Source: a bacterium
Lineage (GTDB): Bacteria > Patescibacteriota > Minisyncoccia > UBA6257 > GWB1-50-10
Direction of reading: 5' to 3'
DNA: 52,303 bases
Assembly: GCA_021791395.1 (NCBI GenBank)
Contig: JAJYWR010000006.1
Span: forward strand, 1 to 52,303
Of this stretch, positions 1 to 29,123 are shown piece after piece. A program made the position numbers and the translations under genes. Under the pieces are notes generated by a model that saw nothing but the letters and a program-made list of their open reading frames with translations, was not told where the DNA came from and did no database searches. Within the stretch, counting starts at the first letter, position 1. Every line of letters starts with the position of its first letter.

Positions 1-100
1 TAAGAAGCGAAAAACCCGGATTCGATGAAGAAGAAATGGTGAAGAGCCTGCCGAACGAAACGCCGCCTGTCGGAGTTATCAAGGCACTCGACGTACCCAT
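1..100. repeat. inverted repeat, left copy (pairs with 2413..2512)
   Basis: The reverse complement of 1-100 aligns without gaps to 2413-2512 at 85/100 identity. Longest exact runs are 14 nt (actccgacaggcgg; ggcaggctcttcac). Confidence 0.9.
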
Positions 101-151
101 GGCTGCAACACAATGGAGCACTGTTTGAACTTGATACGGGTATGAATCCAT
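1..151 (-). CDS. 5'-truncated paralogue of the 2263..7809 surface protein; no signal peptide or promoter; continues beyond the left edge; possible silent cassette
   Basis: The minus-strand frame offset by one from the recombinase frame reads TAG(181-179)...ATG(151)...MGTSSALITPTGGVSFGRLFTISSSSNPGFSLL. This is identical over 32 aa to residues 52-83 of the 2263 protein. Confidence 0.5.
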   Translation of the reverse strand, partial: MDSYPYQVQTVLHCVAAMGTSSALITPTGGVSFGRLFTISSSSNPGFSLL

Positions 152-1697
152 AGACGTGTAGTTCACTCTGAGTTGCGACTATCCTGTCTACTACATTTCT
201 AATTATGACTTGTTTCGCTGCGAAATCCAATTCCCCGAGATGCTCCGCCGCCAGCTTCGCAAAGGTTTGTATTTCATTCTGACGAGGCAAAGCGAGTTCT
301 TCGCTTTCTTTCTTCTCCGCCGCTGCCTTTACCAATGCACCTTTCAAAGAAGTGATCCTATTCCTCACCGGCTTCGTGTACTCGTCCAATTTCTCAAGTG
401 AAAGAAATCCCGCGCCATATGCTTTCATGTAACGCTCCTCCTCTGCGCCTAACCTCGATATCTCCTGCACCACTACATGGATCTCGGTCGAAGACCTTCT
501 CTTCTTTACGTTTCGCCGCGCGACCCATTGCTTGATCTGATCCGCAAGCAATCTTGGAGAACTCATGAGTGAAGATAGCTTCTGCCACACAAGCTCATCG
601 GCCAAGGTCCCGTTCACCGCCTTCTCATGGCAGGCGGAAGGCCGCGGAAATGTGTGGAGACCCTGAGTGCAAACATAGTACTTGAGTTTGCCCTTTCGAA
701 TAGCGTTACCGTTGCGGCGGTAACCGCAACTGCACCAGATCTTTCCGGCAAGCAAGTACGAATACTTCCGGTGCCTTCTCGAGAAGGTGAAATTAGCCTT
801 AAGTCTTTTCTGCGCTTGCTCAAACAAATCCCTTTCTATAATCGGGGGAACCGGGATCTTGATCCACTCGCTCCGTGGTCTGACTCGGCTACTACTTTTC
901 TTCGTCTTCCGGTATTTATCCATCTTCATCGGATGCTCAGGAACGACCGGGCGTGTCTTCCCATAGTAGGCGTCGCCCATGTACGACTCATTCCTCAGAA
1001 GTCGACAAAGAGTACCGGTTGTCCATGTGCCCCGTCCGCTATTCCTCGGCCTGATGTTTTGTTCGTAGAGGCGCTTCACAATCCCCCTGATCGTCAGTCC
1101 CTCATAGGCAGCCCAGGAGAAGATATTCTTTACTACTCTTGCTTCATTCTTGTTCACCTCGTAATAACCATGCTCTCTGTCGTGGCGTCGGACATATCGG
1201 TAGCCGTAAGGAGCAACGCTGCCAAGAACATGCCCTTCTTTAACCACGCGCAGCTTGCCGAGCCGGAACCGTTCAGCAATCTTTGCTCTCTCGTATTCGG
1301 CGAACAACCCCTTCACTCCTTGAAGAATCCTTTCCTCGCCGTTCCTCGGAACAGGGGTTGTCACAAAGAGTACTTCGGTCCCTGCCTCCCTCAGTTCGTC
1401 CATGACCAGTTCCTGATATGAGTAACGGCGAGCCAAACGGTCTGGATCATACGCTAGTACCGCCTCCCAGATTTTGTTCTTCGCGTCCTGCCGCAGCTGA
1501 TCGAGTTGAGGCCGTACCAGGATATCCCCGCTCCACCCATCATCGATATATTCTTTCACAATGGTATAACCGTTCTCTTTGGCGAATTCCCTCACCGCAG
1601 ACAATTGTGTCTCAATTGTCTTCTCCTCTTCCTGTTTTGCCGTCGATACCCTCGCATAGACGGCGATGAGTTTTATTCCTTTCTTGATTTCCTCCAT
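1..1697 (-). CDS. large serine recombinase (3' end runs off the left edge; no stop codon in window)
   Basis: Hand translation of the minus strand from ATG 1697-1695: MEEIKKGIKLIAVYARVSTAKQEEEKTIETQ...AYDPDRLARRYSYQ...GKLRVVKEGHVLGSVAPYGYRY...WCSCGYRRNG...KYYVCTQG. It has the resolvase catalytic-Ser motif, a recombinase domain, a Cys-rich zinc ribbon and a coiled-coil tail. The frame stays open to nt 1, which is why it is missing from the supplied ORF track. ORF 627..1421(+) is its antisense shadow. Confidence 0.9.
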   Translation of the reverse strand, partial: MEEIKKGIKLIAVYARVSTAKQEEEKTIETQLSAVREFAKENGYTIVKEYIDDGWSGDILVRPQLDQLRQDAKNKIWEAVLAYDPDRLARRYSYQELVMDELREAGTEVLFVTTPVPRNGEERILQGVKGLFAEYERAKIAERFRLGKLRVVKEGHVLGSVAPYGYRYVRRHDREHGYYEVNKNEARVVKNIFSWAAYEGLTIRGIVKRLYEQNIRPRNSGRGTWTTGTLCRLLRNESYMGDAYYGKTRPVVPEHPMKMDKYRKTKKSSSRVRPRSEWIKIPVPPIIERDLFEQAQKRLKANFTFSRRHRKYSYLLAGKIWCSCGYRRNGNAIRKGKLKYYVCTQGLHTFPRPSACHEKAVNGTLADELVWQKLSSLMSSPRLLADQIKQWVARRNVKKRRSSTEIHVVVQEISRLGAEEERYMKAYGAGFLSLEKLDEYTKPVRNRITSLKGALVKAAAEKKESEELALPRQNEIQTFAKLAAEHLGELDFAAKQVIIRNVVDRIVATQSELHVYGFIPVSSSNSAPLCCSHGYVECLDNSDRRRFVRQALHHFFFIESGFFAS

Positions 1698-1882
1698 GGA
1701 TGCTTCGTGGACGAATGCTCGTCGAGAAACTTCTTAAGTTCGCCCTTTGGGATGCGCCATAATGCAGTCCTTCCGCTTCCGAGCTTGTACCCCCTAATGA
1801 GTCCTCCCTTGAGCCATCGCTCAACTGTCCTTCGGTTGACTCTAAGGTACCATGCCACTTCATTCCTCGTCATGAATTCCAT
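1673..1882 (-). CDS. helix-turn-helix DNA-binding protein (excisionase/MerR-like HTH)
   Basis: MEFMTRNEVAWYLRVNRRTVERWLKGGLIRGYKLGSGRTALWRIPKGELKKFL is a typical excisionase-family HTH. It overlaps the recombinase start by 25 nt. The track start at 1918 is the TTG of a -35 box, so I moved the start to ATG 1882. Confidence 0.75.
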   Translation of the reverse strand: MEFMTRNEVAWYLRVNRRTVERWLKGGLIRGYKLGSGRTALWRIPKGELKKFLDEHSSTKHPWRKSRKE

Positions 1883-1888
1883 GCATCC

Positions 1889-1918
1889 ATTATATACCAT
1901 ATTTTGCCTAGCTGTCAA
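1889..1918 (-). promoter_or_regulatory. sigma70-type promoter for the HTH-recombinase operon
   Basis: The minus strand reads TTGACA (1918-1913), 18 nt spacer, TATAAT (1894-1889), then 6 nt to ATG 1882. This predicts a leaderless transcript. Confidence 0.6.
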
Positions 1919-2246
1919 CCTTTGATGGACGCGCTGCTCTCTCGGCCTTCCGACATTCTGCCCACTTGGTCTTTAGGACATCATCGAAAAGAAGATCGAA
2001 TGCCCGATCTAAGCCATCTTGCGCTTCCTTTTCCTGTCCCTTAACCGATTCGTAAGTTACGACCGGCACTTGGTCTTCTTGTTTTGGCATCGTGCGTGGA
2101 CCAAATCAATTACGTATCTCATTAATCTAACGGACAATTCGGTTTCCTATAAGCCAGGGAAATTTGTCGAGCGTGGCAGTTTCGCCAGAGATATGAGGAT
2201 CCCTGTGCCACGAAAGCGAGAAGCCCTCCATTCGACATAACCACTC

Positions 2247-2255
2247 TGGTATAAT
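2247..2255 (+). promoter_or_regulatory. extended -10 promoter element of the giant surface protein gene
   Basis: TGgTATAAT at 2247-2255, 7 nt upstream of ATG 2263. Confidence 0.45.
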
Positions 2256-2262
2256 TAAGGAA

Positions 2263-5200
2263 ATGACCAGAAGGAAATATCTGATCTTGATTTTTGCGGC
2301 GGTGCTTGTTTTGACTCCGGCAGTGACAGCGTTCGCTCAGTTCGTTGGTCCTTCGCAGACCCCGCCTGCGGGAGGCGGGACGCTCCAAGTTGACTCCAGT
2401 TACAATGTGGGATTGGGCACCTCAAGCGCCTTGATTACTCCGACAGGCGGTGTTTCGTTTGGCAGGCTCTTCACGATTTCCTCTTCGTCGAATCCGGGCT
2501 TCTCACTTCTCACTGGTAGCAACCGGTACACCTGGTATGCCGATACCGCATCGGGAACGCTAAGCCTTGCCGGTTCCACCAACGGGAGCGGGGGAAACAG
2601 AGTTCTTCAGATTACACCGAACGGATCAATCTACGGTTACGACTACCACAGTATCAACAACCAGAACTACTACGTCGATCCGGGCTTGAGCATCATGCCG
2701 TACTCCGCGATATTCGCCGGCAGTGTTGGAATTGGAACAACGGCGCCGGGGTATAAATTAGATGTTAGCGGGCAGTCAAGATTTAATGGAGGGATGGAAA
2801 TTGGACCAAATACCGCATGGGATCATATAGCCCTTTCAATTGATAAAACAGTTAACGCTTTTGCAAACGGAAACTGGATTAGAGGTATTGATATTGGTAC
2901 GCCTTATAACGTGGGATCTTATGCGGTTCAGCAAGCCAACGCTATTGAGATTGCCTCGCCAACTTTAATCGGCACCGGAAGCATAGTTAATAGTGCACAG
3001 CTATATATACGTAACCCTGGTACAGTTGCATCAAATAATTATTCTATTTATTCTGAGGCCGGCACAAATTATTTCGGCGGCAACGTCGGCATCGGGACTA
3101 CTAACCCATCGACCCTGCTGGATGTGAATGGCCTTTTTACGTCCAGAGTGGCAAGCGGTGTGGGTGCCGGTGATTTAATAATGCAAACTGGCTGGACCGG
3201 GAACGCCGGCGGCTACATAGATGTGTACACCGATAATGTTGTTCGGAGTCAGATAGGTTCCTACAGTGGCACGAATACTTATTTCAATGCCGGAGCTGGC
3301 GGTTATGTTGGTATTGGAACGAGTACCCCCTCGACGGCTGGTCTGGTTGTAACATCGAATGTGAGCGGAGTAGGAATCGATGTGGCGGGCAACCGCATCG
3401 CGAATCTTGGCACGCCGGTGAATCCGAACGATGCGGCGACAAAGAGTTACGTCGATTCTTCGTACGCTCCCGGCGGATCGTCCGGCAACGTCGGCGGTAC
3501 GGGTACCTCCGGCTACATCCCGAAGTGGACCGGTACTTCGACAATCGCGAATTCTCTAATTTATGACAATGGAACCAACGTCGGCATCGGAACGGCGAGT
3601 CCGGGGGCAAAATTGGATGTAGCTGGGGGAATAAATCTTAGTGGTACTCTCAATCAAGGTACGTCACTGTGGGCTTCTTCGGGCGTCCATACTCTTTACC
3701 AATCGGGCGTATATGGAGATGCAAGGACAAGAAGTTTGTATATCCAGACGTACAATGATGGGAGTAATAATGCTGATGTGTGGCAGTTATTTGGAGGAGA
3801 TCTTGATGCCAGTTATACGCTAGCTTCTCCAAAATTTGCGACATGGACTGCATATCCGGGATTTGCCATGGGTAAAACGAACACTGGTTTAATGGAATTT
3901 GTTACTTATCAGTCGACGGGCACCAATTGGAATCCGGTTAGCCCCACAAATATCATGACGTTCAACGGTGCCGGCAACGTCGGCATCGGAACGACAACGC
4001 CGACAACTGCCGGCCTCGTTGTGGCGACGAATGTTTCAACCGTTGGCATCGATGTCCAGAATAACCGTATTGCGAATGTCGGCACGCCGATCAACGCAGC
4101 GGATGCGGCAACCAAGAACTACGTCGATTCTGCTTTTGCAATGGCAACCTCAACGCAGTACTGGGCACTTTCCGGTTCGAATCTGTACCCGGACAGCACG
4201 TCGTATAACGTCGGCATCGGGACGACAGCACCCCAGACGGCTTTGGATGTTAGAAACGGCATCATCACCGCTGGGAGTAGTGCATCTGTGAATGGCTCGG
4301 TTATTTTACAGGGTTACTATAGCGGCAGCACTGCATTAAGTGTGTGGGGCTCCGAAGAGTCGAGTGGTGCACCAGTCATGGGTTATGGTGTTAACCCAAG
4401 CACTTCCACTCCAGGTAGTTTCTTATCCTCATCTGGCATCAGTAGCCTAAACCGTGCTGCAGTGACCGTCGGTGGCAGTAGTAGTGGCGCTGGGAAAATT
4501 ACATTCTTTACCGGTCCTGCTCAAACAGTTGCTGTGGGATCGCCGGTTACCATATCGCCGGTAATGACCATTTCGAATAATGGCAACGTCGGCATCGGGA
4601 CGACGGCTCCCACAACCGCTGGCCTTGTGGTTTCGACGAATGTTTCGAGCATCGGCATCGACGTGAACAACAACCGTATCCAAAATGTTGGTACCCCAAT
4701 CAACGCAGCCGATGCCGCGACGAAATCATATGTCGATTCTGCAATCACGACGGGTGTGAGCGGCGGCGTGAACGGCACAACCGGCTACCTCGCGGAGTTC
4801 ACTGGCACGAACACCGTTGGGAATTCTGCCATCTACCAATCGGGGAGCAATATCGGTATTGGGTCAACTGCGCCAAATGCAAAGTTGACGATTAACTACA
4901 GTGGAACTCCGACAAATCTTTCTAATGCCTTGGTTGCCTATGGTACAGGAGCACTTGGAACTACGGCTGGCAGCTATGCTTATCCAGCAGAGATTATGAA
5001 CAGTTGTGGTAATCTCTGTCGTTTACAGTTTGCAGCCTATAGACGCGATGCGGGAGGTGGGTGGAATGGTGCCGCCTTTAGAATTCAGTATGGAGTAGAC
5101 AATTCGTATACCACAAGTTCGCGTGCATACATAGAGGAAGGTGCGAGATCTGATTACAATGGCTATATTGTTCTTGGGACGAATGGCTCAGATGCAGTAT

Positions 5201-7809
5201 ACATAAACGGTTCTGGCTATGTCGGTATCGGTACCTCAACCCCTGGAACTAATCTTGATGTGAACGGGAACATTAATTCCCAAGTTTACTACGACCGCAA
5301 CAACACGAATTATTATGTTGAGCCATCGGCCGCCATCCTGCCGTATTCCGCAGTCTTTGCTGGTTCGGTTGGCATTGGAACAACTGGCCCGACATCAATT
5401 GTCCAAATAAACGGTGGCGAGGGCGCACCGGCTACGAGCGGAAACATGAATACGGGGTTGATTCTTTCACATAGCATGGGTGGCCCGGCGTTAAACATTG
5501 GAGTACAAAATGTCGGTTTAGGGACAAGTTATGGTTGGCTAAGCTCGGCTTACGCAAATAATGCAGGGGCGTATAATTATCTTGTCTTGCAGCCAAACGG
5601 CGGCAACGTCGGCATTGGGACGACGGCGCCGGGGCAAAGTCTGACGGTGGCAAATACACTGGCTGTTACTAATACCTCCGGGACGCAATTTTTTCTTATT
5701 GGTAATCAGGATTCAGCCGGCGTCAACAATCCTGGGATAATCGCTGGTTCGAATGGTGCTCTCAGATTTGGACATGGTTCAAGTTGGAGTGGGTCGGGTG
5801 GAACGCTCACAGAAACTATGCGATTAAGTAGTGCGGGCGGTTTATCCCTTGGGAGCAGTTATGTATCAACAGATGCTGGGGCGGGGAATATGATAGTCAG
5901 CGGTAATGTGGGCATCGGGACGGCGAGTCCAGGGACAAAACTCGATGTAAGTGGTGATGTGTACTTGGGTCATCAAGGCACGCCAATTTCGGTTAACTCC
6001 GATTTCGGGAGCAGCGGCGTAGTGTTAGGCGCCAATGAGTATTACAGTGGCGGCTGGAACCTATTTAGCACAAGTATGTACGGTTTTCAGATTGATTTTC
6101 ATACTGCTACAAGCTCAACGCCCGCGGTCAATTTTAACTATTCGGCCCCGGCAGCTAATCCCGTTTCTTACACAACGGTGATGTCTATGTATCCGGGAAC
6201 CGGCAGTGTTGGTCTCGATCTCCATAATTATCGTATCCAAAATGTCGGTACGCCGATCAATGCAGCCGATGCGGCGACAAAATCATATGTCGATTCTGCA
6301 ATCACGTCAGGTGTGAGCGGTGGCGTTAACGGTACCACGAACTACATTGCGAAATTCACCGGCACGAACACGGTGGGAAATTCTCTGATCTATGACAATG
6401 GGACTAACGTCGGCATCGGAACGGCGGGGCCGGGGGCAAACTTACAAATTGGAGATACTTCAAGTGGTTACGTAAGGATAAATAAAAACGGAGGATGGAA
6501 CGAATATTATGCTTCCGAAGCATACCCGAGGGTAACTCTAAGCAGAGACGGAGCCGCATCGGGCGTAGCTGCCTTGATGTTTGGGTTTGGGAGTTCTCCC
6601 CCTAACAACATTATCCAAGCACTGCCTAGCGGTTCGACAGGAATTTCTATACCTAACGGCAACGTCGGTATCAATACCACCGCTCCCGGTACCAGCCTCG
6701 ACGTGAACGGAAACATCAACGTCGGTTCCGTTCTCTACGATCGCACGAATACCAACTACTACGTGAACCCTTCGGGGAATATTATGCCGTACGCGGCAAA
6801 TCTGAACGGGGGTATAAATATGAACGGCAATGTCAACGTCAATTACAATACAGTTACATCTATCGGGCGCAAGCCAAAAGTCGTACTTGTGGGATATAAT
6901 TCGGGATCTCATCCGACATATGATTGGTTGGTCAATAACGGATATATTGTGGGTACTATTGATACTTCCACGCCGGTTGCTACGCTTGCCACACAAGACT
7001 ACGACATATATATGGTTGACGGATCGGCTTGGGGGGATGATTCTTTTAACACTACCCTTTACACGCTTTGGAAGAAATATGGCAAAAACATAATAGATAC
7101 CGGGAATGATACATGTTCGGGCCTTTACCCGGTAGCGAGCTGCACCAGTCAATCTGGATATTCAGGAGCTCCCGGCAATTATTATCATATTATTACAAGG
7201 GCTTATCAGTCGGTCACGGATATCGGTGCCAACGGCGACGGCGGCAATGTTATTACTGCTGTGCGTCCGCCCTTTCAAGTCATCTACACTCAAAATGGAA
7301 ATACGAGTCTTATAGAAGGCGTCATTGGAGAAAGTGAAAAAGGTGGTATTTGGTTCCATGATCAGACTGGATTTATGACTAATACCGCCGATGGTCAGGG
7401 AGTATTATTAAATGTTATAAGATATATGACCGGCGCTGACAGCCAAATGATCAGTTGGCGTATAGCCAATGCGGGATATCGTAATATATTCTCTCCGGAG
7501 GTTGATAATGGAACGGCGACGGGAGCTTCTACCATCGATTGGTCGCAAAGCAATACCCAGACGCTGGTTCTCGGGGCATCGCCGATCGCTCTTACCTTCA
7601 GTAACGGCCAAGCTGGCGCTCACTATACGCTTGCCCTGAAGCAGGATGCGACGGGGAGCAGACTCGTGACATGGCCGGCGAATGTCCGTTGGTCAAGCGG
7701 TGTCGCGCCGACCCTTACGACGGCCGCCAACAAGACCGACTACGTCGAGTTCGTCTATGACGGTCTTTCGAGCACCTTCGACGGCGTCGGCTTCAACGCC
7801 AACTTCTAA
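2263..7809 (+). CDS. giant secreted tail-fibre-like repeat protein (1848 aa)
   Basis: Signal peptide MTRRKYLILIFAAVLVLTPAVTAFAQ. Many GNVGIGTxxPxxxLDV repeats. Four copies of NRIxNxGTPxNxxDAATKxYVDS, a motif typical of phage tail-fibre proteins. The C-terminal ~320 aa are unique. Confidence 0.85.
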   Translation: MTRRKYLILIFAAVLVLTPAVTAFAQFVGPSQTPPAGGGTLQVDSSYNVGLGTSSALITPTGGVSFGRLFTISSSSNPGFSLLTGSNRYTWYADTASGTLSLAGSTNGSGGNRVLQITPNGSIYGYDYHSINNQNYYVDPGLSIMPYSAIFAGSVGIGTTAPGYKLDVSGQSRFNGGMEIGPNTAWDHIALSIDKTVNAFANGNWIRGIDIGTPYNVGSYAVQQANAIEIASPTLIGTGSIVNSAQLYIRNPGTVASNNYSIYSEAGTNYFGGNVGIGTTNPSTLLDVNGLFTSRVASGVGAGDLIMQTGWTGNAGGYIDVYTDNVVRSQIGSYSGTNTYFNAGAGGYVGIGTSTPSTAGLVVTSNVSGVGIDVAGNRIANLGTPVNPNDAATKSYVDSSYAPGGSSGNVGGTGTSGYIPKWTGTSTIANSLIYDNGTNVGIGTASPGAKLDVAGGINLSGTLNQGTSLWASSGVHTLYQSGVYGDARTRSLYIQTYNDGSNNADVWQLFGGDLDASYTLASPKFATWTAYPGFAMGKTNTGLMEFVTYQSTGTNWNPVSPTNIMTFNGAGNVGIGTTTPTTAGLVVATNVSTVGIDVQNNRIANVGTPINAADAATKNYVDSAFAMATSTQYWALSGSNLYPDSTSYNVGIGTTAPQTALDVRNGIITAGSSASVNGSVILQGYYSGSTALSVWGSEESSGAPVMGYGVNPSTSTPGSFLSSSGISSLNRAAVTVGGSSSGAGKITFFTGPAQTVAVGSPVTISPVMTISNNGNVGIGTTAPTTAGLVVSTNVSSIGIDVNNNRIQNVGTPINAADAATKSYVDSAITTGVSGGVNGTTGYLAEFTGTNTVGNSAIYQSGSNIGIGSTAPNAKLTINYSGTPTNLSNALVAYGTGALGTTAGSYAYPAEIMNSCGNLCRLQFAAYRRDAGGGWNGAAFRIQYGVDNSYTTSSRAYIEEGARSDYNGYIVLGTNGSDAVYINGSGYVGIGTSTPGTNLDVNGNINSQVYYDRNNTNYYVEPSAAILPYSAVFAGSVGIGTTGPTSIVQINGGEGAPATSGNMNTGLILSHSMGGPALNIGVQNVGLGTSYGWLSSAYANNAGAYNYLVLQPNGGNVGIGTTAPGQSLTVANTLAVTNTSGTQFFLIGNQDSAGVNNPGIIAGSNGALRFGHGSSWSGSGGTLTETMRLSSAGGLSLGSSYVSTDAGAGNMIVSGNVGIGTASPGTKLDVSGDVYLGHQGTPISVNSDFGSSGVVLGANEYYSGGWNLFSTSMYGFQIDFHTATSSTPAVNFNYSAPAANPVSYTTVMSMYPGTGSVGLDLHNYRIQNVGTPINAADAATKSYVDSAITSGVSGGVNGTTNYIAKFTGTNTVGNSLIYDNGTNVGIGTAGPGANLQIGDTSSGYVRINKNGGWNEYYASEAYPRVTLSRDGAASGVAALMFGFGSSPPNNIIQALPSGSTGISIPNGNVGINTTAPGTSLDVNGNINVGSVLYDRTNTNYYVNPSGNIMPYAANLNGGINMNGNVNVNYNTVTSIGRKPKVVLVGYNSGSHPTYDWLVNNGYIVGTIDTSTPVATLATQDYDIYMVDGSAWGDDSFNTTLYTLWKKYGKNIIDTGNDTCSGLYPVASCTSQSGYSGAPGNYYHIITRAYQSVTDIGANGDGGNVITAVRPPFQVIYTQNGNTSLIEGVIGESEKGGIWFHDQTGFMTNTADGQGVLLNVIRYMTGADSQMISWRIANAGYRNIFSPEVDNGTATGASTIDWSQSNTQTLVLGASPIALTFSNGQAGAHYTLALKQDATGSRLVTWPANVRWSSGVAPTLTTAANKTDYVEFVYDGLSSTFDGVGFNANF
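2413..2512. repeat. inverted repeat, right copy (inside the 5' coding region of the giant protein gene)
   Basis: See the left copy. All 14 differences within the shared 32 codons are third-position synonymous changes. Confidence 0.9.
4675..4830 (+). repeat. intragenic direct repeat, copy A
   Basis: About 85% identical by hand alignment to 6232-6387, including a 27 nt exact run (aaatcatatgtcgattctgcaatcacg). Confidence 0.8.
6232..6387 (+). repeat. intragenic direct repeat, copy B
   Basis: See copy A. The offset is 1557 nt, which is in frame. Confidence 0.8.
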
Positions 7810-7835: not shown

Positions 7836-8297
7836 ATGGAGAAACAGAAGGGTAACGCGTCGGTTAAGTGGATAGCCTTGGGGGTCATCGTGGTCGTTTT
7901 GATTGGCATTTGGATATTCAACGGCACCAAGAAAGCTCAAAACCCGAATTACACATCGAATGCCTCATCGACCTCGACTGCCGATGTTGTGGCGGCAGCC
8001 GTAGCGCAGGATCATTTTTCGGTTGTTAATATCCGTGCCGAAAACGGCAAATTTATTCCTGATACTTTCACGGTGGCGGCCGGCAAGGTTTTAATGATCA
8101 ATTTCACGGGGGTTGACGGAACGTATGACCTCGGCTTTGCGAATCCGAAGATCGGTTTCGACGTCGTCGTGAAGAAGGGTGAAACGCAGGCGTTTGGATT
8201 CGATACAACCGGAAAGACAGCGGGAGATTACGTATTCCATTGCATTCAGTACTGCCCGAAGAGTGGTACGATGCAGGGGACGATGACGCTCCAATAA
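7836..8297 (+). CDS. membrane-anchored cupredoxin-like domain protein
   Basis: An N-terminal TM helix, an S/T-rich linker, then a beta-sandwich-like domain ending GDYVFHCIQYCPKSGTMQGTMTLQ. TATAAT at 7824-7829 lies 6 nt before the ATG. Confidence 0.6.
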   Translation: MEKQKGNASVKWIALGVIVVVLIGIWIFNGTKKAQNPNYTSNASSTSTADVVAAAVAQDHFSVVNIRAENGKFIPDTFTVAAGKVLMINFTGVDGTYDLGFANPKIGFDVVVKKGETQAFGFDTTGKTAGDYVFHCIQYCPKSGTMQGTMTLQ

Positions 8298-8300: not shown

Positions 8301-9056
8301 ATGCGGGAAATCCTTCGGTTGAGTTTTTCGCTCGCGAAGACGAATTTTAAGTTGCGGAACGAGGGGAGTTATCTTGGTATCGTGTGGTACCTCTTGGGTC
8401 CCCTCGCCCTTTTTTTTATCATCCTCTTCGTGAAAGGTGCGGCATTTCCCGGTACCTCCGCTCCGTCGTATCCGATCTACCTGCTTGTTGGCATTACTGG
8501 GTTTAACTTTTTTCGGCAAAGCATTACCACGTCCATCCAGGCGATCAATGCAAATGCCGGTTTTTTGAAATCAATCAACAACGTTTCCCCCGAAACGTTC
8601 GTCCTTTCGACGATCCTCGAGGCCGCCTTTTCACACGCTTTCGAAGTGGCGCTCGTCGCTGTGTTTATGATCTACTTCGGGGTTCCCATCATGGGAATAT
8701 TGCTTTATCCCATTTCGTTTCTGGTCTTTTTGCCCTTTGTTATCGGCGCAGGATTTTTTTGTGCCACGGTCGGCGTTTATACGATCGACCTCGACAATGT
8801 GTGGATGATTTTGAGCCAGCTCCTGTTCTTTGTGACGCCGATATTCTACACCGTCGAGCCGGGGACCGCTCTTTATACCGTGAACCTTTTCAATCCGCTT
8901 TTTTACTTCGTCCGGATTTCCCGCGATCTTCTCATTCACCAATCATTCCCGCCGGTTCGGATATTCGGTGCCCTCCTCGTTGCCGGAGCCATTGCCTGTT
9001 TCATCGGAATCAAGCTTTTCGAGTCGAAAAAACGCGAACTTGCGGAAAGAGTATAA
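8301..9056 (+). CDS. ABC-2 type polysaccharide/teichoic-acid exporter permease (Wzm/TagG-like)
   Basis: 251 aa with about 6 hydrophobic segments. The N-terminus LAKTNFKLRNEGSYLGIVWYLLGP is typical of ABC-2 permeases. It sits 3 nt after the preceding gene. Confidence 0.8.
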   Translation: MREILRLSFSLAKTNFKLRNEGSYLGIVWYLLGPLALFFIILFVKGAAFPGTSAPSYPIYLLVGITGFNFFRQSITTSIQAINANAGFLKSINNVSPETFVLSTILEAAFSHAFEVALVAVFMIYFGVPIMGILLYPISFLVFLPFVIGAGFFCATVGVYTIDLDNVWMILSQLLFFVTPIFYTVEPGTALYTVNLFNPLFYFVRISRDLLIHQSFPPVRIFGALLVAGAIACFIGIKLFESKKRELAERV

Positions 9057-9060
9057 AGGT

Positions 9061-9816
9061 ATGGAAGGTTTGAATGTTCAAAACATATCAAAAACATTCC
9101 ACATCCGGGTTCGTCCCCCCGAAGGCGCCTTGGGACACTTTGTTTCGCTTATTGCAGGCAAGGGGGATACCCGCGAACTTCGGGTGCTGGACGATATTTC
9201 CTTTGATTGCCGGCCGGGGGGAGTTTTGGGTGTTATCGGGCGGAACGGATGCGGAAAGAGCACACTCCTCCGTATCATAGCCGGGATCTACAAAGAAGAC
9301 AGCGGCATCGTCTGTGCGCCGGGGCGCGTTATGTATTTGAGCGGTTTCAACATCGGGCTCCAAAGCAGACTCACGATGCGCGAGAATATCTACCTCGTCG
9401 GTTCCATGATGGGGCTCAAAAAACGGGACGTAAAGCGGTACTTCAACGACATCATTGCATTTTCCGGCCTCAAGGATTTTTTGGATACGAACGTCTACCA
9501 ATTTTCGTCCGGCATGGTGGCGCGGCTCGGCTTTTCTTCCGTCATTAGTTTTATGAGTCACAAGAAACCGGAGGTCGTGCTCCTTGACGAAGTTTTAGGC
9601 GCGGGCGGCGATGCGGAGTTCAAAGAAGAAGCGCTCGAAAAGATGGAGGATTTCATAAATTCCGGAGCCGCGGTCGTCATGGTAAGCCATGACATGAAAC
9701 CAATCCGGAAATACTGCTCTCGGGCGATCTTCCTTGAAAACGGGAAAATTGTCGCGGAAGGGAAACCGGAATCGGTAATCAAGAGGTATGAATCGACGAT
9801 CGGTATTTCCTCATAA
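9061..9816 (+). CDS. ABC exporter ATP-binding protein (Wzt/TagH-like)
   Basis: Walker A GRNGCGKST, signature FSSGM, Walker B VVLLDE. The start was moved to ATG 9061 (MEGLNVQNISKTF). Confidence 0.85.
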   Translation: MEGLNVQNISKTFHIRVRPPEGALGHFVSLIAGKGDTRELRVLDDISFDCRPGGVLGVIGRNGCGKSTLLRIIAGIYKEDSGIVCAPGRVMYLSGFNIGLQSRLTMRENIYLVGSMMGLKKRDVKRYFNDIIAFSGLKDFLDTNVYQFSSGMVARLGFSSVISFMSHKKPEVVLLDEVLGAGGDAEFKEEALEKMEDFINSGAAVVMVSHDMKPIRKYCSRAIFLENGKIVAEGKPESVIKRYESTIGISS

Positions 9817-9836
9817 GGGCGCGTCCCCATATTTCC

Positions 9837-10304
9837 TCAACAACGTTCTCTTTTCCGAGGTATTTTTCCCCATACTCTCTCTGCTTCTCTTTCGGAATCG
9901 TGCACAAAGACCGACCCACCCGGTTTTACGAGGCGTGACGCTTCGTAAATGCTCTTCATTCTGCCGGGTTTGTCGGGTGCGTAGCCGGCAGGGCCGTCGA
10001 CAAGCACCGTGTCCCATGTCGTTTCTCGAATGTCGGCGGGGAGTTTGAGTTCGAGTTTCTCTGGGTGGTTGATGAGTTTTTGCCACTCATCGACGCGGGT
10101 GTCGTAGTGAACGCGATATATTTCGAGTGCGGGGCATTTCTTTTGAATGCGATTGAACCACGCTTCTTCGTCTTCGAGAAAAACCGTTCTTCCGCCGCGA
10201 TTCGCTTTGTTCCAGAAAATGGAGTCGTTCCCCGCGCCGAAGACGAGGAGATTCATCGGCGGGCGGATGGTCTGGAAGATAACGAAAATTTCGGGCGTTT
10301 CCAT
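9837..10304 (-). CDS. DUF579-family SAM-dependent polysaccharide O-methyltransferase (glucuronoxylan 4-O-methyltransferase-like)
   Basis: NLLVFGAGNDSIFW..NRGGRTVFLEDEEAW..YRVHYDTRV..WDTVLVDGPAGY..PGRMKSIY..VFVHDSEREAE follows, motif by motif, the plant GXM/DUF579 pattern as I recall it. Confidence 0.65.
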   Translation of the reverse strand: METPEIFVIFQTIRPPMNLLVFGAGNDSIFWNKANRGGRTVFLEDEEAWFNRIQKKCPALEIYRVHYDTRVDEWQKLINHPEKLELKLPADIRETTWDTVLVDGPAGYAPDKPGRMKSIYEASRLVKPGGSVFVHDSEREAERVWGKIPRKRERC

Positions 10305-11240
10305 TTAAATGCCGAGGAGTTTTCTTGTGATCGCAATGCGGAACCGTGAGAAGCGGATTGAGATCGATTCCACGACGAGGCCGACTTTCCACGCTGCGTC
10401 CGACATGACGCGGAAGGGCGCCCGGTGTGGATAAACGATGAATTGAAAGACGGCCCACGGGACGAACGCAAAGAAGTTCCAAATTCGATGGGAGCGGGCG
10501 CTCTCGTCTTCTTTAAAATAATCGCGGAATGCGGGATCGTGGATACGTTCGACGAAAATCCGTTCGAGGCCGCGCGCCCGTGCGTACTGCGTTCTCCACA
10601 ATTCCCTAAGTGAAGCATCGTGATGGTGTCGGACCTTAAGGTCCGGGAGGAATCTGATTTTTACCCCCTTCTTTTTGAGGCGGAGGAAAAGATCCCAGTC
10701 TTCGTAAGCTTGGATAGTCGGATCGAACATGGTGTCTTTTATGCAATCCGCCCGAATGGCGAAGTTTTTGGTGTCGATGTGTGCGGCGTATCGGCCGTCG
10801 AATTTTGAAAATACGAATCTCCCATCTTCTTCCTGCCGCATGCGGGTCCAGTAGTTTTCGCCCGCCGCTTCTTCAAAACCCATAACCGCATGCTCGTTTT
10901 CTTCCCAAATTGGGCGCGTAATCTGCTTCAACCAATCCTCGGGGACGATGCAGTCGGCGTCGGTCATGGCGATTATATCGCCTTGAGTTCTTGTGATGCC
11001 GGTATTTCGGGCGCTCGCCCGGCCGGGAATGCTTTCGTGCACCACTTTCAAAAAATCGGGGAAGCGTTTTGCGAAATCGTCGATAACACTTCGCGTTTCG
11101 CGGTCGGAATCATTCTCGACGACGATCACCTCGTACGGTTTTTCTGTTTGGTTGAGAACGGCGGTCAAGCAATCGGAAAGTGTTCCGCTCGCGTTCCGCA
11201 CGGGAACGATCACACTAATTTTTGATGCGGACTTTTTCAT
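10305..11240 (-). CDS. glycosyltransferase family 2
   Basis: ISVIVPVRNASGTLSDCLTAVLNQT..YEVIVVENDS plus a TDADC (DxD-type) motif. Confidence 0.85.
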   Translation of the reverse strand: MKKSASKISVIVPVRNASGTLSDCLTAVLNQTEKPYEVIVVENDSDRETRSVIDDFAKRFPDFLKVVHESIPGRASARNTGITRTQGDIIAMTDADCIVPEDWLKQITRPIWEENEHAVMGFEEAAGENYWTRMRQEEDGRFVFSKFDGRYAAHIDTKNFAIRADCIKDTMFDPTIQAYEDWDLFLRLKKKGVKIRFLPDLKVRHHHDASLRELWRTQYARARGLERIFVERIHDPAFRDYFKEDESARSHRIWNFFAFVPWAVFQFIVYPHRAPFRVMSDAAWKVGLVVESISIRFSRFRIAITRKLLGI

Positions 11241-12219
11241 AGAGCGTGGGCGACAGTTTTTTTATGCAGAGCCCAACTTTGCCGACGAGCCAGTCGAAGA
11301 AGTAGAAGATGGGGCGGTAATAGGTGATGAATTTGCGCAGGGCAAGCGATCGGAGATACCGGCGCTTTCGCTCTATCGTCCAGATGTCTTGCGGCTCCCG
11401 CGGGTGCGCGATGTCTATCGCGTCTGCTTTCTCGAGATTTCGTACCCACTCATCGTGGAAAAAGGAAGCCGGAAGCCAGGGTTTCGCCATTACCTCCCGG
11501 ACGAAATGGAAAATGATACCCTCCATTTTTTCGTAGGGCATGCGGTAAGCGCGGTGAGTTCGGAACGGATAGACGTTGAAGAGATCCGAGATCCGGTGCC
11601 ATTTTCGATAAAAGAGAAGGTTGATGGTTGCTTCTTCTCCATATTTGTTCAAAGTGCCGAAACGTTGGTAGAGGTTCATCAGTTTTTCAAACGAGTCCGC
11701 TTCGACGTTGCCGGTTTTGATGGCCATGATGCCGCTGTTGAATGCCCTCCCAAAGAGGGGATATTTCCGCTCCAGCGTTTTAAAAAGCTTGCGGTTGGCT
11801 TTGTTGCGCTTGATAAATTCCTGCCGTAAAGAAGTACCGTGGGCATTCGGCGAAGAAAAGGGCTCTTCGATGTGCACGAGTTCTTCGAGTGATGCCCTGA
11901 TGATAATATCGGCGTCGAGGAAAATAACCCGCTTCCATTTTTTAAAGAAGGGAGTGAAGAGATAGAATTTGTCGAGGACGACGGAAGGGTGCTCCACGCC
12001 GGCGATGCTTTTTTCCGAAAGCGCTTTGCAGGGAAAAACCAAGATCCCTTTCTCCCGGAACCACCGCAAATCCTCCTCCGGGATCTCATGCGCCAAGAGC
12101 AGGAAATCCCCCTGCCACCCTCCGTTCCAGTATGCGGACGAAAAGAGCTGCTTCGCCTGGGGGATGAAGTTCTTGTCGGCAAGGGTGACGAGGACATTTT
12201 TCTTGGAGTTATTATTCAT
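11215..12219 (-). CDS. glycosyltransferase family 8-like, tandem paralogue 1
   Basis: VLVTLADKNFIPQAKQLFSSAYWNGGWQGDFLLL...VIFLDADIII...FNSGIMA. The start was moved to ATG 12219. Confidence 0.75.
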   Translation of the reverse strand: MNNNSKKNVLVTLADKNFIPQAKQLFSSAYWNGGWQGDFLLLAHEIPEEDLRWFREKGILVFPCKALSEKSIAGVEHPSVVLDKFYLFTPFFKKWKRVIFLDADIIIRASLEELVHIEEPFSSPNAHGTSLRQEFIKRNKANRKLFKTLERKYPLFGRAFNSGIMAIKTGNVEADSFEKLMNLYQRFGTLNKYGEEATINLLFYRKWHRISDLFNVYPFRTHRAYRMPYEKMEGIIFHFVREVMAKPWLPASFFHDEWVRNLEKADAIDIAHPREPQDIWTIERKRRYLRSLALRKFITYYRPIFYFFDWLVGKVGLCIKKLSPTLYEKVRIKN

Positions 12220-13222
12220 GTTTGATGCGGATTTTTTCGTAGAAGGAAGGCAATGCCTTTTTAACACCAAGACCGATCTTGCCGATGATTCGATCGATGG
12301 ATGAAAGGAAAGGCCGCTGACTCAAAAAAGGCGATTCCGTTGTTTTGAAGCGGCGCACGTATCTTTTCCAGTCTCTTTTAGTCCATGTCTTTGCCGGTCT
12401 TTGTCGCATCGAAAGATTCATCGCATCCGCTCTCTCTAGGTTATTATTCCACTCTTGGTAAAAAACGGAAGTTGTAAGCCATGGTTTGTTGATGTCCTCT
12501 CCCACAGCATGAAGAATGCCGGCGTCGATTTTTTCGTAGGGAATGCCGTAGGTTCGATAGAGGTAAAACGGGAAAGCGTTTTCGTAGATTGGCAGTTTTT
12601 TCCATTTTTTATAGAAGAACAAGTTGAGCACCGTCTCTTCGCCGCAACGGTCGACATCATCGAAGTATCGGTAAAGAGCGAGGAGTTTGTCGAACACCCC
12701 CTCTTTTATTATTTTGGTTTTAAATGCAAGGACACCGCTGTTCAATGCAGTTTTTTCCATTGAATAATGCGCCTCGACTTCCCGGAGGACCTGTTGATTT
12801 TCGGAATCGGGTTCCAGAAACTCGTCTTGAAGCGTAAAACCGCCCGCCTCGCCGGCCGCGAATGATGCCCGGATGTGCACGAGTTCTTCGAGTGATGCCC
12901 TGACGATAATATCGGCGTCGAGATAGACGACGGTTTTCCACTGCTTGAAGAAGGGGGTGAAGAGATAGAATTTTGAGAGAGCCGCGGACCGGTGCGTCGG
13001 ATCGGAGAAGGTCTCGGATGTAAGCGCCCTGCAGGGAAAAACGATGATCCCTTTCTCCCGAAACCACCGCAAATCCTCCTTCGGGATCTCATGCGCCAAG
13101 AGCAGGAAATCCCCCTGCCACCCTCCGTTCCAGTATGCCGACGAGAAAAGTTGCTTCGCCTGGGGAATGAAGTTTTGGTCGGCAAGGGTTACTAGAACAT
13201 TTTTCTTGGGGTTATTGTCCAT
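12212..13222 (-). CDS. glycosyltransferase family 8-like, tandem paralogue 2
   Basis: It has the same N-terminal 70 aa as its neighbours, plus YLDADIIV and LNSGVLA motifs. Confidence 0.75.
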   Translation of the reverse strand: MDNNPKKNVLVTLADQNFIPQAKQLFSSAYWNGGWQGDFLLLAHEIPKEDLRWFREKGIIVFPCRALTSETFSDPTHRSAALSKFYLFTPFFKQWKTVVYLDADIIVRASLEELVHIRASFAAGEAGGFTLQDEFLEPDSENQQVLREVEAHYSMEKTALNSGVLAFKTKIIKEGVFDKLLALYRYFDDVDRCGEETVLNLFFYKKWKKLPIYENAFPFYLYRTYGIPYEKIDAGILHAVGEDINKPWLTTSVFYQEWNNNLERADAMNLSMRQRPAKTWTKRDWKRYVRRFKTTESPFLSQRPFLSSIDRIIGKIGLGVKKALPSFYEKIRIKHE

Positions 13223-14378: not shown

Positions 14379-14407
14379 TATGCAGTGTTGTGTTTATTAT
14401 ATAGTAT

Positions 14408-16468: not shown

Positions 16469-16477
16469 TGTTTTCGT

Positions 16478-25497: not shown

Positions 25498-25696
25498 ATC
25501 AATCAGTCCTTTCTTATATTCACTTTCTAAAAAACTCTCAATTGTACTATGTTGGTATTATACCACTCTTCATTATTTTTGTCAAAATCCCCGCCAAATC
25601 CCGCCATTTCCGCACTTTCGGTATCCCGCCCGCTCTCGCCCCCGTTTTCTCCCGCCCTGCACCCGTTCTGCCCCCCGCTCTCCCTCAAAAATTACA

Positions 25697-25739
25697 GGCC
25701 CCCCGCTCTCCTCGAATTTTTGAAGGAGACCGGAGGGCC
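25697..25739 (+). repeat. REP-like palindromic element, copy 1
   Basis: ggccccccgctctcct-cgaatttttga-aggagaccggagggcc forms a ~16 bp imperfect stem. It is preceded by decayed direct copies of the left arm at 25625-25640 and 25671-25686. Confidence 0.75.
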
Positions 25740-25797
25740 TTTAAATCTGTGGATAATTAGAGCCCTCTCTTGGTTTTATTCGGTTTAGAATATTTCT

Positions 25798-28885: not shown

Positions 28886-28947
28886 TATTTCAATTATACC
28901 CCATCTCTGCATCATGCGAATTTGCCCCTTTTGCCCACGGAATTTTT

Positions 28948-28990
28948 GGCCCCCCGCTCTCCTCGAATTTTTGAAGGAGACCGGGGGGCC
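28948..28990 (+). repeat. REP-like palindromic element, copy 2
   Basis: ggccccccgctctcctcgaatttttgaaggagaccggggggcc is near-identical to copy 1. Confidence 0.75.
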
Positions 28991-29123
28991 AAAATTTTGG
29001 GGATAAATTCTATTGATAGTTGAATTTTAACTCTTACAATAAGTGATAGGGATAAGCAAAAAAGAGCAACTCGTAAGGGCGTGCTCTTTTTTGTCTTATG
29101 GAGTCGTCAATTCATTCATTCAC

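What the first reader, a model, noticed from the sequence alone, without database searches (positions are those of the whole stretch)
1..2520. Candidate DNA-inversion switch: a serine recombinase cassette bracketed by inverted copies of the 5' coding region of a tail-fibre-like giant surface protein
Seen in sequence:
- The reverse complement of 1-100 aligns without gaps to 2413-2512 (85/100 identical by hand alignment).
- In the frame of the 2263..7809 gene, both copies encode the identical 32 aa GTSSALITPTGGVSFGRLFTISSSSNPGFSLL.
- All 14 nucleotide differences inside that block are third-position synonymous changes, so both copies look constrained at the protein level.
- The left copy (minus strand, running off the window) has an in-frame TAG at 181-179 just upstream. 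It has no signal peptide or promoter of its own.
- The right copy has an extended -10 (2247-2255), ATG 2263 and a signal peptide.
- The ~2.3 kb between the repeats holds only a strong promoter (TTGACA-18-TATAAT, 1918-1889), an HTH gene, a large serine recombinase and that expression module.

Established knowledge: the Gin/Cin/Pin/Min invertases and the R64 shufflon swap C-terminal parts of tail-fibre or pilus adhesins by inversion next to their recombinase gene.

Inference: recombination between the repeats would move the promoter and signal-peptide exon (about 2247-2412) onto the left-hand gene body. That would switch which giant adhesin variant is made, which is plausible for an episymbiotic CPR cell changing host or receptor specificity. 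Two features would be unusual. The enzyme is a large serine recombinase rather than a small Hin-type one. The invertible segment carries the expression module rather than the variable parts.
Basis: partly seen in the sequence, partly recalled or inferred. Interest (0 to 1): 0.85.

Follow-up and report, generated by a model that had tools for sequence, protein, structure and literature searches.

The report
Serine-integrase junction inside an adhesin gene family
The inverted repeat is real, but its left copy is the scar where a phage-type serine integrase, whose recombination site lies in the end of its own gene, joined itself to a neighbouring-family surface-adhesin gene; the join differs between samples, so it looks like an active way of rearranging adhesin genes in a CPR bacterium rather than the simple two-state flip first proposed.

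Summary
The repeat is confirmed: window 1-100 is the reverse complement of 2413-2512 at 85/100. Both copies encode the same 32 aa, and all 14 differences inside that block are synonymous.

The left copy is more than a second 5' end. The large serine recombinase (LSR) ORF (1697 to 3, minus strand) has no stop codon. It runs into the left copy and is fused to it at a GG (97-96).

That GG is the centre of a 38-bp palindromic site, which survives intact in a 67%-identical relative. In other relatives the same point is fused to other adhesin bodies, a membrane-protein gene, or ychF.

Other assemblies show that the junction varies:
- A 100%-identical cassette is joined to a different adhesin body.
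- The left-hand body (99/100 nt) exists as an intact 1439-aa adhesin gene with its own signal peptide at another locus.

So site-specific recombination at the left junction is recent and polymorphic.

The right copy shows no sign of crossover. Two cassette alleles stay diverged for about 50 nt past its G-L-G-T site.

The window is chromosomal (central metabolism genes, 16S rRNA) and holds no second junction.

Best reading: an integrase-type LSR rearranges adhesin genes at G-x-G-T motifs. A programmed switch is possible but unproven.

The parts
1..95 (-). Body L: start of an adhesin body with no signal peptide, (G)TSSALITPTGG..., running off the contig end. This is the target-derived half of the junction (y2).
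   Evidence: 99/100 nt identical to the P0237 gene body in L018. No signal peptide or start context, and TAG upstream at 181-179.
96..97 (-). Inferred central GG dinucleotide (CC on the + strand) of the recombination site, i.e. the crossover point.
   Evidence: Centre of the 38-bp palindrome in relative D. Identity to L002 and L018 switches within the shared TGGGTAC. The A/B identity jumps from about 80% to 100% here.
98..115 (-). x1 half-site CATTGTGTTGCAGCCATG, inside the last conserved codons of the recombinase (PLCCSHG). In the adhesin frame it reads HCVAAM.
   Evidence: Conserved as CATTRTGTTNNAGCYRTR-GG in cassettes A-E.
3..1697 (-). Large serine recombinase (integrase-type) ORF, 565+ aa, with no stop codon in the window. 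Its C-terminal tail is encoded by whatever lies beyond the junction.
   Evidence: Pfam Resolvase 5e-30, Recombinase 6e-22, Zn_ribbon_recom 4e-4. PHROG integrase 8.5e-92. Catalytic YARVST aligns to TP901-1 Int. dN/dS 0.07 against allele B.
1673..1882 (-). HTH_17 excisionase-like gene overlapping the recombinase start (69 aa from the ATG; a longer TTG-start ORF reaches 1918).
   Evidence: PF12728 3.5e-11. PHROG 'excisionase and transcriptional regulator' 8e-9. Present in all cassettes A-E.
1889..1918 (-). Consensus sigma-70-type promoter for the HTH-recombinase operon.
   Evidence: TTGACA-18-TATAAT, 12/12 matches.
1908..2090 (-). Conserved small ORF (60 aa) of unknown function upstream of the HTH gene.
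   Evidence: Called in L001-L004. The A and B products align over most of their length. No Pfam or PHROG hit.
2247..2262 (+). Extended -10 (TGgTATAAT, 2247-2255) and ribosome-binding region of the adhesin gene.
   Evidence: The block CTCTGGTATAATTAAGGAAATGA is identical in alleles A and B while the flanks diverge. A similar block lies upstream of another adhesin in L003 (I8).
2263..2415 (+). Head of the expressed adhesin: signal peptide and residues up to ..SSYNVGL (51 codons).
   Evidence: Translation. It co-diverges with the recombinase cassette between alleles A and B, with dS about 1.9.
2413..2512 (+). Right copy of the repeat: the conserved N-terminal module of the adhesin family. The homologous GG is at 2416-2417, followed by CAC.
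   Evidence: Alleles A and B remain diverged to about 2466, so there is no evidence of crossover here.
2263..7809 (+). Giant tail-fibre-like surface protein R (1848 aa) with 16 G-x-G-(T/S/I) motifs and a Phage_phiTE_241_C-type C-terminus.
   Evidence: Its continuity into cupredoxin and the ABC transporter is confirmed in two other assemblies.

Best explanation
Shown:
- The left arm is one half of a serine-recombinase junction.
- The recombinase is an integrase-type LSR, paired with an excisionase-like HTH gene. Its recombination site lies inside its own last codons: half-site CATTGTGTTGCAGCCATG (115-98) and central GG (97-96).
- At that GG it is joined, in the adhesin reading frame, to the first G-L-G-T motif of a paralogous adhesin gene (P0237 type).
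- This leaves that gene's body without promoter or signal peptide behind the recombinase.
- The inverted repeat exists because the captured body and the neighbouring expressed adhesin R share a conserved N-terminal module.
- The junction is recent and polymorphic. An identical cassette is joined to a different adhesin body (T) in another assembly, where body L is an intact gene elsewhere.

Inferred:
- The window is chromosome and holds no second junction. The events are therefore most likely intrachromosomal recombinations (large inversions) between the recombinase-end site and GG-TAY-type G-x-G-T motifs in adhesin genes.
- Each event uncouples one adhesin body from its expression head and may hand another body back.
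- This changes which tail-fibre-like adhesins the cell displays. The HTH protein possibly sets direction.
For: 1. The LSR ORF has no stop and crosses into the arm.
2. L002 is 100% identical to window 93-2979 and then switches to a different sequence. That sequence is 100% identical to the one following the 82%-identical cassette B.
3. L018, from the same sample as L002, carries body L (99/100 nt) behind its own signal-peptide head, next to a PaaX_M gene.
4. Five cassettes share the half-site but have different partners: A|L, A|T, B|T, C|another adhesin body, E|membrane-protein start. The three adhesin fusions are in frame at G-x-G-T.
5. Relative D keeps an intact site, CATTATGTTCCAGCTATA-GG-TATAGTTGGAACACAATC, with 16/18 dyad symmetry and a conserved native tail.
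6. Relatives 59% identical are fused at the same point to the start of ychF.
7. All six partners begin TAY after the GG. Only 2 of 45 G-x-G-T motifs in five adhesin genes do so, and one of the two is the site used in L.
8. The LSR is under purifying selection (dN/dS 0.07 at dS about 1.2) and its catalytic motif is intact.
9. The window is chromosomal: GAPDH, CTP synthase, transketolase, aldolase and Pol X, a 16S rRNA start at 52112, and uniform GC.
10. Contig E ends 139 nt after the core in a k=141 assembly. That fits an assembly-graph branch at the junction.
Against: - No reciprocal junction was found: neither head'|T nor head'|x2.
- No reads were available, so both states have not been shown in a single sample for the same site pair.
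- A|L and A|T come from two different assemblies, which may represent different strains rather than switching cells.
- Canonical LSRs recombine attP with attB, or attL with attR. Direct exchange between a hybrid site and an intact adhesin site would be non-canonical, so two-step reactions must be assumed.
- Relatives C, D and E sit among mobile-element-like genes.
- The sequence left of position 1 is unknown.
Confidence: 0.55

Rival explanations
1. Ordinary integrated mobile element. The LSR, excisionase-like gene, small ORF and adjacent adhesin are the edge of an element that inserted into a host adhesin gene. A|L, A|T and B|T would be insertion polymorphisms of selfish elements, not a host-controlled switch.
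For: - The clade behaves like integrases: PHROG integrase, and fusion to ychF or a membrane-protein gene in relatives.
- An intact attP-like site sits next to a D12 methylase, RuvC and TraG-like genes in D. DUF932 and a methylase lie near C.
- An empty target site exists (L018).
- Diverged cassettes A and B have identical flanks.
Against: - From the cassette rightwards the window is 50 kb of chromosome ending in a 16S rRNA gene. It contains no second junction, no head' exon, no PaaX_M and no x2 half-site.
- The link from R to cupredoxin to the ABC transporter is reproduced in two other assemblies.
- The flanking bodies point away from each other, which a simple insertion into one gene cannot produce.
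Confidence: 0.25
2. The 2.3-kb segment (recombinase cassette plus promoter plus signal-peptide exon) flips between the two inverted copies. This would alternately express body R or body L.
For: - The geometry is right. The two GG cores are in inverted orientation (CC at 96-97, GG at 2416-2417) and both are in the same codon phase, so an inversion would keep the frame.
- The left junction is demonstrably recombinogenic.
Against: - The predicted products LSR_A|R, headA|L and headA|T are not in the collection.
- Alleles A and B remain about 60% identical for some 50 nt past the right-hand GG. No recent crossover happened there.
- The right site reads GG-CAC, unlike all used partners, which read GG-TAY.
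- The variation actually observed replaces the partner on the left (L versus T) while R stays attached to its head.
Confidence: 0.1
3. No site-specific event. The junctions come from homologous recombination among repetitive adhesin genes, or from assembly chimeras in repeats.
For: - The adhesin family is strongly mosaic. P0235/P0236 and P0237/P0239 share heads and then diverge at points that are not G-x-G-T motifs.
- The right boundary of A/B divergence (about 2466) looks like homologous exchange.
- Contigs break inside these genes.
Against: - Homology at the junction is only 7 nt (TGGGTAC).
- The same nucleotide position is used in ychF and membrane-protein fusions in distant relatives.
- That position coincides with the centre of a 38-bp palindrome.
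- The junction k-mers must exist in reads for both assemblies.
Confidence: 0.07

Closest known systems
Phage and mobile-element serine integrases inserted in host genes (TP901-1 and A118-type integrases, SPbeta SprA/YokA, TnpX). Named from PDB matches and from general knowledge.
   Same: - Resolvase catalytic domain with the YxRVST serine, a recombinase domain and a zinc ribbon.
- The integrase gene sits directly at the att junction.
- A small excisionase-like partner gene is present.
- The target lies inside a coding sequence, and an empty target is seen in other genomes.
   Different: - The site lies inside the integrase's own last codons, so the C-terminal tail is swapped at each event.
- The targets are a motif repeated in a family of paralogous adhesins.
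- 52 kb of adjoining chromosome holds no second junction and no element body.
Mycoplasma pulmonis vsa / HvsR, with the related vsp and vpma systems (PMC2268961).
   Same: - One promoter plus ribosome-binding site plus 5' coding segment.
- Silent bodies that lack a 5' end.
- Site-specific recombination inside the coding sequence that preserves the frame.
- A recombinase gene in the locus.
   Different: - The recombinase there is a tyrosine recombinase.
- The silent genes are clustered, and both orientations are shown experimentally.
- Here the enzyme is a serine integrase, the partner gene lies at another locus, and reversibility is unproven.
Gin/Cin/Pin/Hin invertases and the R64 shufflon (general knowledge; gene-altering inversions surveyed in PMC9881135).
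   Same: - The recombinase lies next to tail-fibre-like or adhesin genes.
- There is a single upstream part and alternative downstream parts.
   Different: - Those enzymes are roughly 190-aa serine invertases that depend on an enhancer, or the tyrosine recombinase Rci.
- Their short inverted repeats are the sites themselves.
- Here the 100-nt repeat is paralogy, and the site is a 38-bp integrase-type site at the repeat's edge.
Campylobacter fetus sap inversion (from memory; not verified in the papers read).
   Same: A promoter-bearing segment lies between oppositely oriented surface-protein homologues that share conserved 5' coding regions.
   Different: That system is RecA-dependent homologous recombination with no dedicated recombinase. 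Here the crossover maps to a recombinase site.
SSV-type archaeal viral integrases whose attP lies inside the int gene (from memory).
   Same: The recombination site lies within the integrase ORF, so recombination alters the integrase gene.
   Different: Those are tyrosine recombinases of archaeal viruses, and integration splits the gene rather than swapping a short tail.

Membership tests
Large serine recombinase (serine integrase) | N-terminal resolvase-type catalytic domain with the nucleophilic serine. | tested here: met
   PF00239, 5e-30, residues 11-156. YARVSTAKQ aligns with TP901-1 integrase YTRVSTTNQ.
Large serine recombinase (serine integrase) | Large C-terminal part: a recombinase domain plus a zinc ribbon. 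| tested here: met
   PF07508, 6e-22. PF13408 scores 21.1 bits, below the 25.3 cut-off, in the window protein, but is recorded for most close homologues. The protein is 565+ aa long.
Large serine recombinase (serine integrase) | Recombination site with two inverted half-sites around a 2-bp centre. | tested here: met
   Relative D (67% identical to the cassette-A recombinase): CATTATGTTCCAGCTATA-GG-TATAGTTGGAACACAATC, 16/18 symmetric. The window keeps only the x1 half plus the GG.
Large serine recombinase (serine integrase) | Directionality set by a separate factor (RDF). | not testable with these tools
   An HTH_17 excisionase-like gene overlaps the recombinase start. Its role is inferred only.
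Hin/Gin/Cin/Pin DNA invertases | Small enzyme (about 190 aa): a catalytic domain plus a C-terminal HTH. | tested here: not met
   The protein is 565+ aa with recombinase and zinc-ribbon domains. PHROG integrase scores 8.5e-92 against DNA invertase 2.7e-25.
Hin/Gin/Cin/Pin DNA invertases | Two matching short sites in inverted orientation that bracket the invertible segment. | tested here: not met
   The left site is CATTGTGTTGCAGCCATG-GG-TAC and the right is ACAATGTGGGATTG-GG-CAC. Outside TGGG the recombinase-side halves are unrelated.
Expression-site inversion system (Mycoplasma vsa type) | A single promoter plus 5' exon, with silent 5'-truncated bodies. | tested here: met
   Head at 2247-2415. 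Body L lacks a start, signal peptide and promoter. The same layout occurs in cassettes B and C.
Expression-site inversion system (Mycoplasma vsa type) | The same head found joined to alternative bodies (both states observed). | tested here: not met
   Head A is seen only with R. The predicted headA|L, headA|T and head'|T proteins are absent. This negative is weak because only complete, exact proteins are findable.
Expression-site inversion system (Mycoplasma vsa type) | A tyrosine recombinase (HvsR/Xer1). | tested here: not met
   The enzyme is a serine recombinase.
Integrated mobile element with a terminal integrase | The integrase abuts one att junction, and an empty target exists elsewhere. 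| tested here: met
   Junction at 96-97. The intact target gene is in L018.
Integrated mobile element with a terminal integrase | A second junction and an element body between the two junctions. | tested here: not met
   The window holds no head' exon, no PaaX_M, and no x2 half-site or native-tail remnant. The adjoining 50 kb is chromosome up to a 16S rRNA gene.

The most novel reading that the evidence does not exclude
A chromosomally resident serine integrase, together with its excisionase-like partner, works as a reversible multi-target 'shufflase'. Its site, embedded in its own 3' end, recombines with GG-TAY-type G-x-G-T motifs in several tail-fibre-like adhesin genes around the genome. 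By inversion this parks one adhesin body behind the recombinase (OFF) and releases another. It would be the first serine-integrase-based surface-variation system and the first programmed variation system described in CPR/Patescibacteria.
Probability: 0.3. Interest if true: 0.85.

Novelty: new variant of a known kind. Interest (0 to 1): 0.6.

Why it matters
CPR/Patescibacteria are thought to live attached to host cells. Their giant tail-fibre-like surface proteins are the obvious candidates for host recognition, yet no mechanism for varying them is known.

This locus shows, at nucleotide resolution and in natural populations, a serine integrase recombining inside such genes:
- The fusions are in frame.
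- The partner differs between samples.
- An intact 'empty' copy of the target exists.

If the events are reversible, this is a new way to switch adhesins. It would use an enzyme class so far known for integration, excision and developmental excisions.

It is also of practical interest. The clade's site lies within the integrase gene itself, and the clade has shifted targets (ychF, a membrane-protein gene, adhesin motifs) while keeping a recognisable half-site. That makes it a natural series for studying how LSR target choice evolves.

Tried and rejected
- **Extending the contig leftward.** Position 1 is the contig end in the only record that carries the giant protein.
- **Metagenome scan** with the x1 half-site pattern. 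It returned only the known B contig and one chance hit in GC-rich, eukaryote-like DNA.
- **Genome scan** with the recombinase. No relative closer than 59% turned up.
- **Viral scan** with an alignment of eight LSRs. Only relatives at or below 33% identity turned up, so the clade is not in IMG/VR.
- **Exact look-ups of seven predicted chimeric proteins**, both recombinase|body and head|body. None is in the collection.
- **Search for native-tail remnants or x2 half-sites** in the window and in loci L001-L022 and L046. The viral loci L023-L045 were not searched. Only D's own site was found.
- **Idea that L and T are parts of one gene**, with A|T a deletion of A|L. This holds for P0235 in another MAG. 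In the sample concerned, however, L belongs to P0237, which has no T segment. The idea was dropped as the general explanation.
- **Idea of an element boundary right after the giant gene or after the cupredoxin gene.** L015 and L016 are colinear with the window there.
- **Literature.** No paper in the library holds 'Patescibacteria', 'serine recombinase' and 'inversion' together. The assembly prefix JAEHJW appears in no paper.

Full report
**1. Observation**

The repeat is real. Window 3-99 pairs with 2414-2510 over 97 nt at 87%, with BLAST E = 7e-29 and no further copy in the 52 kb. The full 1-100 against 2413-2512 comparison gives 85/100.

In the frame of the 2263 gene, both copies encode GTSSALITPTGGVSFGRLFTISSSSNPGFSLL. 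There are 14 third-position synonymous differences. The only other change is in the preceding codon, ATG versus TTG.

The other reported features also hold:
- The TAG at 181-179.
- The 12/12 promoter at 1918-1889.
- The TGgTATAAT at 2247-2255.
- The recombinase has Resolvase and Recombinase domains and a sub-threshold zinc ribbon.

**2.

The recombinase ORF (1697 to 3, minus strand) has no stop codon. It reads on through the left copy in a different frame and off the window. Position 1 is a contig end. The left copy is therefore physically fused to the 3' end of the recombinase gene.

**3. The fusion point is a recombination junction**

Contig L002, from ENA assembly ERZ27236928, is 100% identical to window 93-2979 and then continues with an unrelated sequence. 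That sequence is 100% identical, over the 116 nt available, to the one following a second cassette, B (L003/L004). Upstream of the junction, B is only about 82% identical to A. Identity thus jumps from about 80% to 100% exactly at the junction.

In the adhesin frame the junction reads:
- ..HCVAAMGT|SSALIT.. in the window.
- ..HCVAAMGT|TNPSYKLTV.. in L002.
- ..HCVVAVGT|TNPSYKLTV.. in B.

The downstream ORF in B is a 1290-aa adhesin-like body without a signal peptide.

A third cassette, C, is 69% identical at the protein level (L005-L007). It is fused in the same way to another body..HCVPAIGT|TTPASTLDVNG...

A fifth cassette, E (L046), is fused at the same nucleotide to what looks like the start of a membrane-protein gene. 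Its contig ends 139 nt past the junction in a k=141 assembly. That is what a graph branch at the junction would give.

Relatives 59% identical, in Jorgensenbacteria and Saccharibacteria MAGs, are fused at the equivalent point to the start of ychF..(M)GIVGLPNVGKS...

**4. The site**

Relative D (P0120, L008) and two others (P0119, P0122) keep a conserved 'native' C-terminal tail.

At the point where the others diverge, D has CATTATGTTCCAGCTATA-GG-TATAGTTGGAACACAATC. This is a 38-bp site with 16/18 dyad symmetry around a central GG. That is the expected form of a serine-recombinase site.

All cassettes keep the left half, CATTRTGTTNNAGCYRTR-GG. In the window it lies at 115-98, with the GG at 97-96.

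All six different partner sequences begin TAY after the GG. Among 45 G-x-G-T motifs in five adhesin genes, only two do so. One of the two is the motif used in body L. The right-hand copy in the window reads GG-CAC.

**5. Identity of the left-hand body**

A search with the whole giant protein found paralogues P0235-P0239. They share ..NYNVGLGT|SSALITPTGGVSFGRLFTISSSSNPGFSLLTG.. behind different signal peptides. The repeat is therefore a conserved N-terminal module of a mosaic adhesin family, which explains the purely synonymous divergence.

P0237 is 1439 aa long and sits in L018, from the same ENA sample as L002 and L003. Its DNA matches the window's left arm at 99 of 100 positions. The single mismatch is the base just upstream of the shared TGGG.

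There the body sits behind its own head, MQKNSRK...NVGLGT, next to a PaaX_M-domain gene. Body L is therefore a full-length adhesin body that is intact in one assembly and parked behind the recombinase in the window.

The body called T is internal to an intact gene, P0235 (..NIGIGT|TNPSYKL..), in another MAG.

**6. What kind of enzyme and context**

- The recombinase matches PHROG 'integrase' at 8.5e-92, against 'DNA invertase' at 2.7e-25.
- The overlapping HTH gene matches 'excisionase and transcriptional regulator'.
- The catalytic YARVST motif aligns with TP901-1 integrase.
- Between alleles A and B the recombinase has dN/dS 0.07 at dS about 1.2, so both copies are under selection.
- Relatives C, D and E have mobile-element-like or defence-like neighbours: a D12 methylase, RuvC, TraG-like, DUF932 and an AAA ATPase.

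The window is different: it is chromosome. It carries an ABC-2 transporter and a glycosyltransferase cluster, Pol X, GAPDH, CTP synthase, a split transketolase, aldolase and the start of a 16S rRNA gene at 52112. GC is uniform.

The link from R to cupredoxin to the ABC transporter is reproduced in two other assemblies.

The window contains no head' exon, no PaaX_M gene, no x2 half-site and no native-tail remnant. A simple inserted element with both ends nearby is therefore excluded. The flanking bodies also point away from each other, which a single insertion cannot produce.

**7. The right-hand copy**

Alleles A and B are identical in the first 141 nt of their contigs and 96-100% identical from about window 2466 rightwards. 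Between the G-L-G-T (2413-2424) and 2466, however, they are only about 60% identical.

Had the right-hand GG been a recent crossover point with a common body, identity would start at the GG, as it does on the left. This argues against the right copy being an active site. The boundary at 2466 looks like homologous exchange, which is rampant in this mosaic family.

The predicted products of the local flip, and of other head|body or recombinase|body combinations, were not found by exact look-up. This negative is weak, because only complete identical proteins can be found.

**8. Interpretation**

Shown:
- An integrase-type LSR, with its site in its own 3' end, has recombined at a GG with the first G-L-G-T motif of a P0237-type adhesin gene.
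- Identical cassettes carry different partners in different assemblies.
- The target exists intact elsewhere.

Inferred:
- The cassette sits in the chromosome without a second junction. The events are therefore most likely intrachromosomal, that is, large inversions between the recombinase-end site and GG-TAY motifs in adhesin genes.
- Each event switches off the gene that receives the junction.
- With canonical LSR rules this needs attP x attB-type and excisionase-assisted reverse steps. Direct exchange between a hybrid site and an intact site would be non-canonical.

I put 0.55 on this reading and 0.25 on plain insertion polymorphism of a mobile element.

**9. Comparison with known systems**

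The enzyme is a member of the large serine recombinases; its defining features are met. It is not a Hin/Gin-type invertase.

The layout, with one promoter plus 5' exon and bodies lacking a 5' end, works like the Mycoplasma pulmonis vsa system. There a segment with promoter, ribosome-binding site and the first 714 nt is placed in front of silent 3' bodies by the tyrosine recombinase HvsR (PMC2268961). It also matches the general pattern of gene-altering inversions (PMC9881135). The 'moving expression module' is therefore not new.

What is unusual:
- The enzyme class.
- The site lying inside the recombinase's own coding end, so that its tail changes at each event.
- The use of a motif repeated across an adhesin family.
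- The occurrence in CPR bacteria. This placement rests on source names for recombinase and adhesin homologues such as Jorgensenbacteria, Kaiserbacteria, Paceibacterota and Patescibacteria.

**10. Verdict**

- Novelty: new variant of a known kind.
- Interest is 0.6. It would rise to about 0.85 if read-level data show reversible switching.

Noticed in passing
window 52112-52303 (+): The window ends in the first 192 nt of a bacterial 16S rRNA gene (Rfam SSU_rRNA_bacteria, 123.8 bits). The contig therefore runs from an adhesin repeat at one end to an rRNA gene at the other. No tRNA was found in the 52 kb.
   Followed up: partly
L002 versus L003 (window 93 to about 2466 equivalent): Two cassette alleles, A and B, differ at dS about 1.2-1.9 across the recombinase, HTH gene, small ORF, promoter flanks and the first 68 adhesin codons. 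Yet their flanks are 100% identical on both sides. This is either an ancient dimorphism or two paralogous cassettes with homogenised flanks. Which of the two was not resolved.
   Followed up: partly
window 25670-25756, 28935-28990, 34219-34278, 42178-42244: Short intergenic elements (about 50-66 nt) are repeated within the window. They are 82-94% similar to intergenic sequences in L017 and L003, possibly a REP- or terminator-like repeat family.
   Followed up: no
window 25798-26556 (+) and 26000-34000: An IS200-like Y1 transposase ORF lies at the start of a lower-GC stretch (0.43-0.47, against 0.50 elsewhere). That stretch also holds lamin-tail-domain proteins, including a 1521-aa protein with a cupredoxin-like C-terminus, and a Pol X/PHP gene.
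   Followed up: no
window 7836-8297; L017 8769-9347; L020 131-709: Small cupredoxin-like proteins recur next to adhesin genes of this family in several genomes. The C-terminus of the 1521-aa protein also resembles the gene fragment upstream of PaaX_M in L018 (59% aa).
   Followed up: no
window 8301-19590: An ABC-2 permease and ATPase pair lies next to a GXM-like methyltransferase and nine glycosyltransferase genes (GT2, GT4, GT8). This looks like a surface-glycan locus directly downstream of the adhesin.
   Followed up: no
window 42281-43150 and 43255-44451: Transketolase is encoded as separate N-terminal and C-terminal genes. They sit among GAPDH, ribulose-phosphate epimerase, CTP synthase, PfkB kinase and class II aldolase.
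   Followed up: no
L001 / window: The only public record found with the giant protein (JAEHJW030002488.1) is listed as 7809 nt, ending exactly at the gene's stop codon. The window continues for 52 kb. Continuity across 7809 is nevertheless confirmed by L015 and L016.
   Followed up: partly
L016 versus window 8301-9056: A 1-nt indel in an otherwise 99.9%-identical contig from another sample shifts the start of the ABC-2 permease gene (223 aa called instead of 251 aa).
   Followed up: no
L008 1-6091: The relative with the intact site (D) sits next to Prok-E2, JAB/ThiF and BubE genes and a ResIII helicase. This is a ubiquitin-like defence-type cluster.
   Followed up: no
L003 6425-7361; P0235/P0236 C-termini: AAATCCTAAA-type repeats encode ..NPKSQILNSKQ.. 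near the 3' ends of several adhesin genes. They also form inverted repeats around the neighbouring 23S_rRNA_IVP gene.
   Followed up: no
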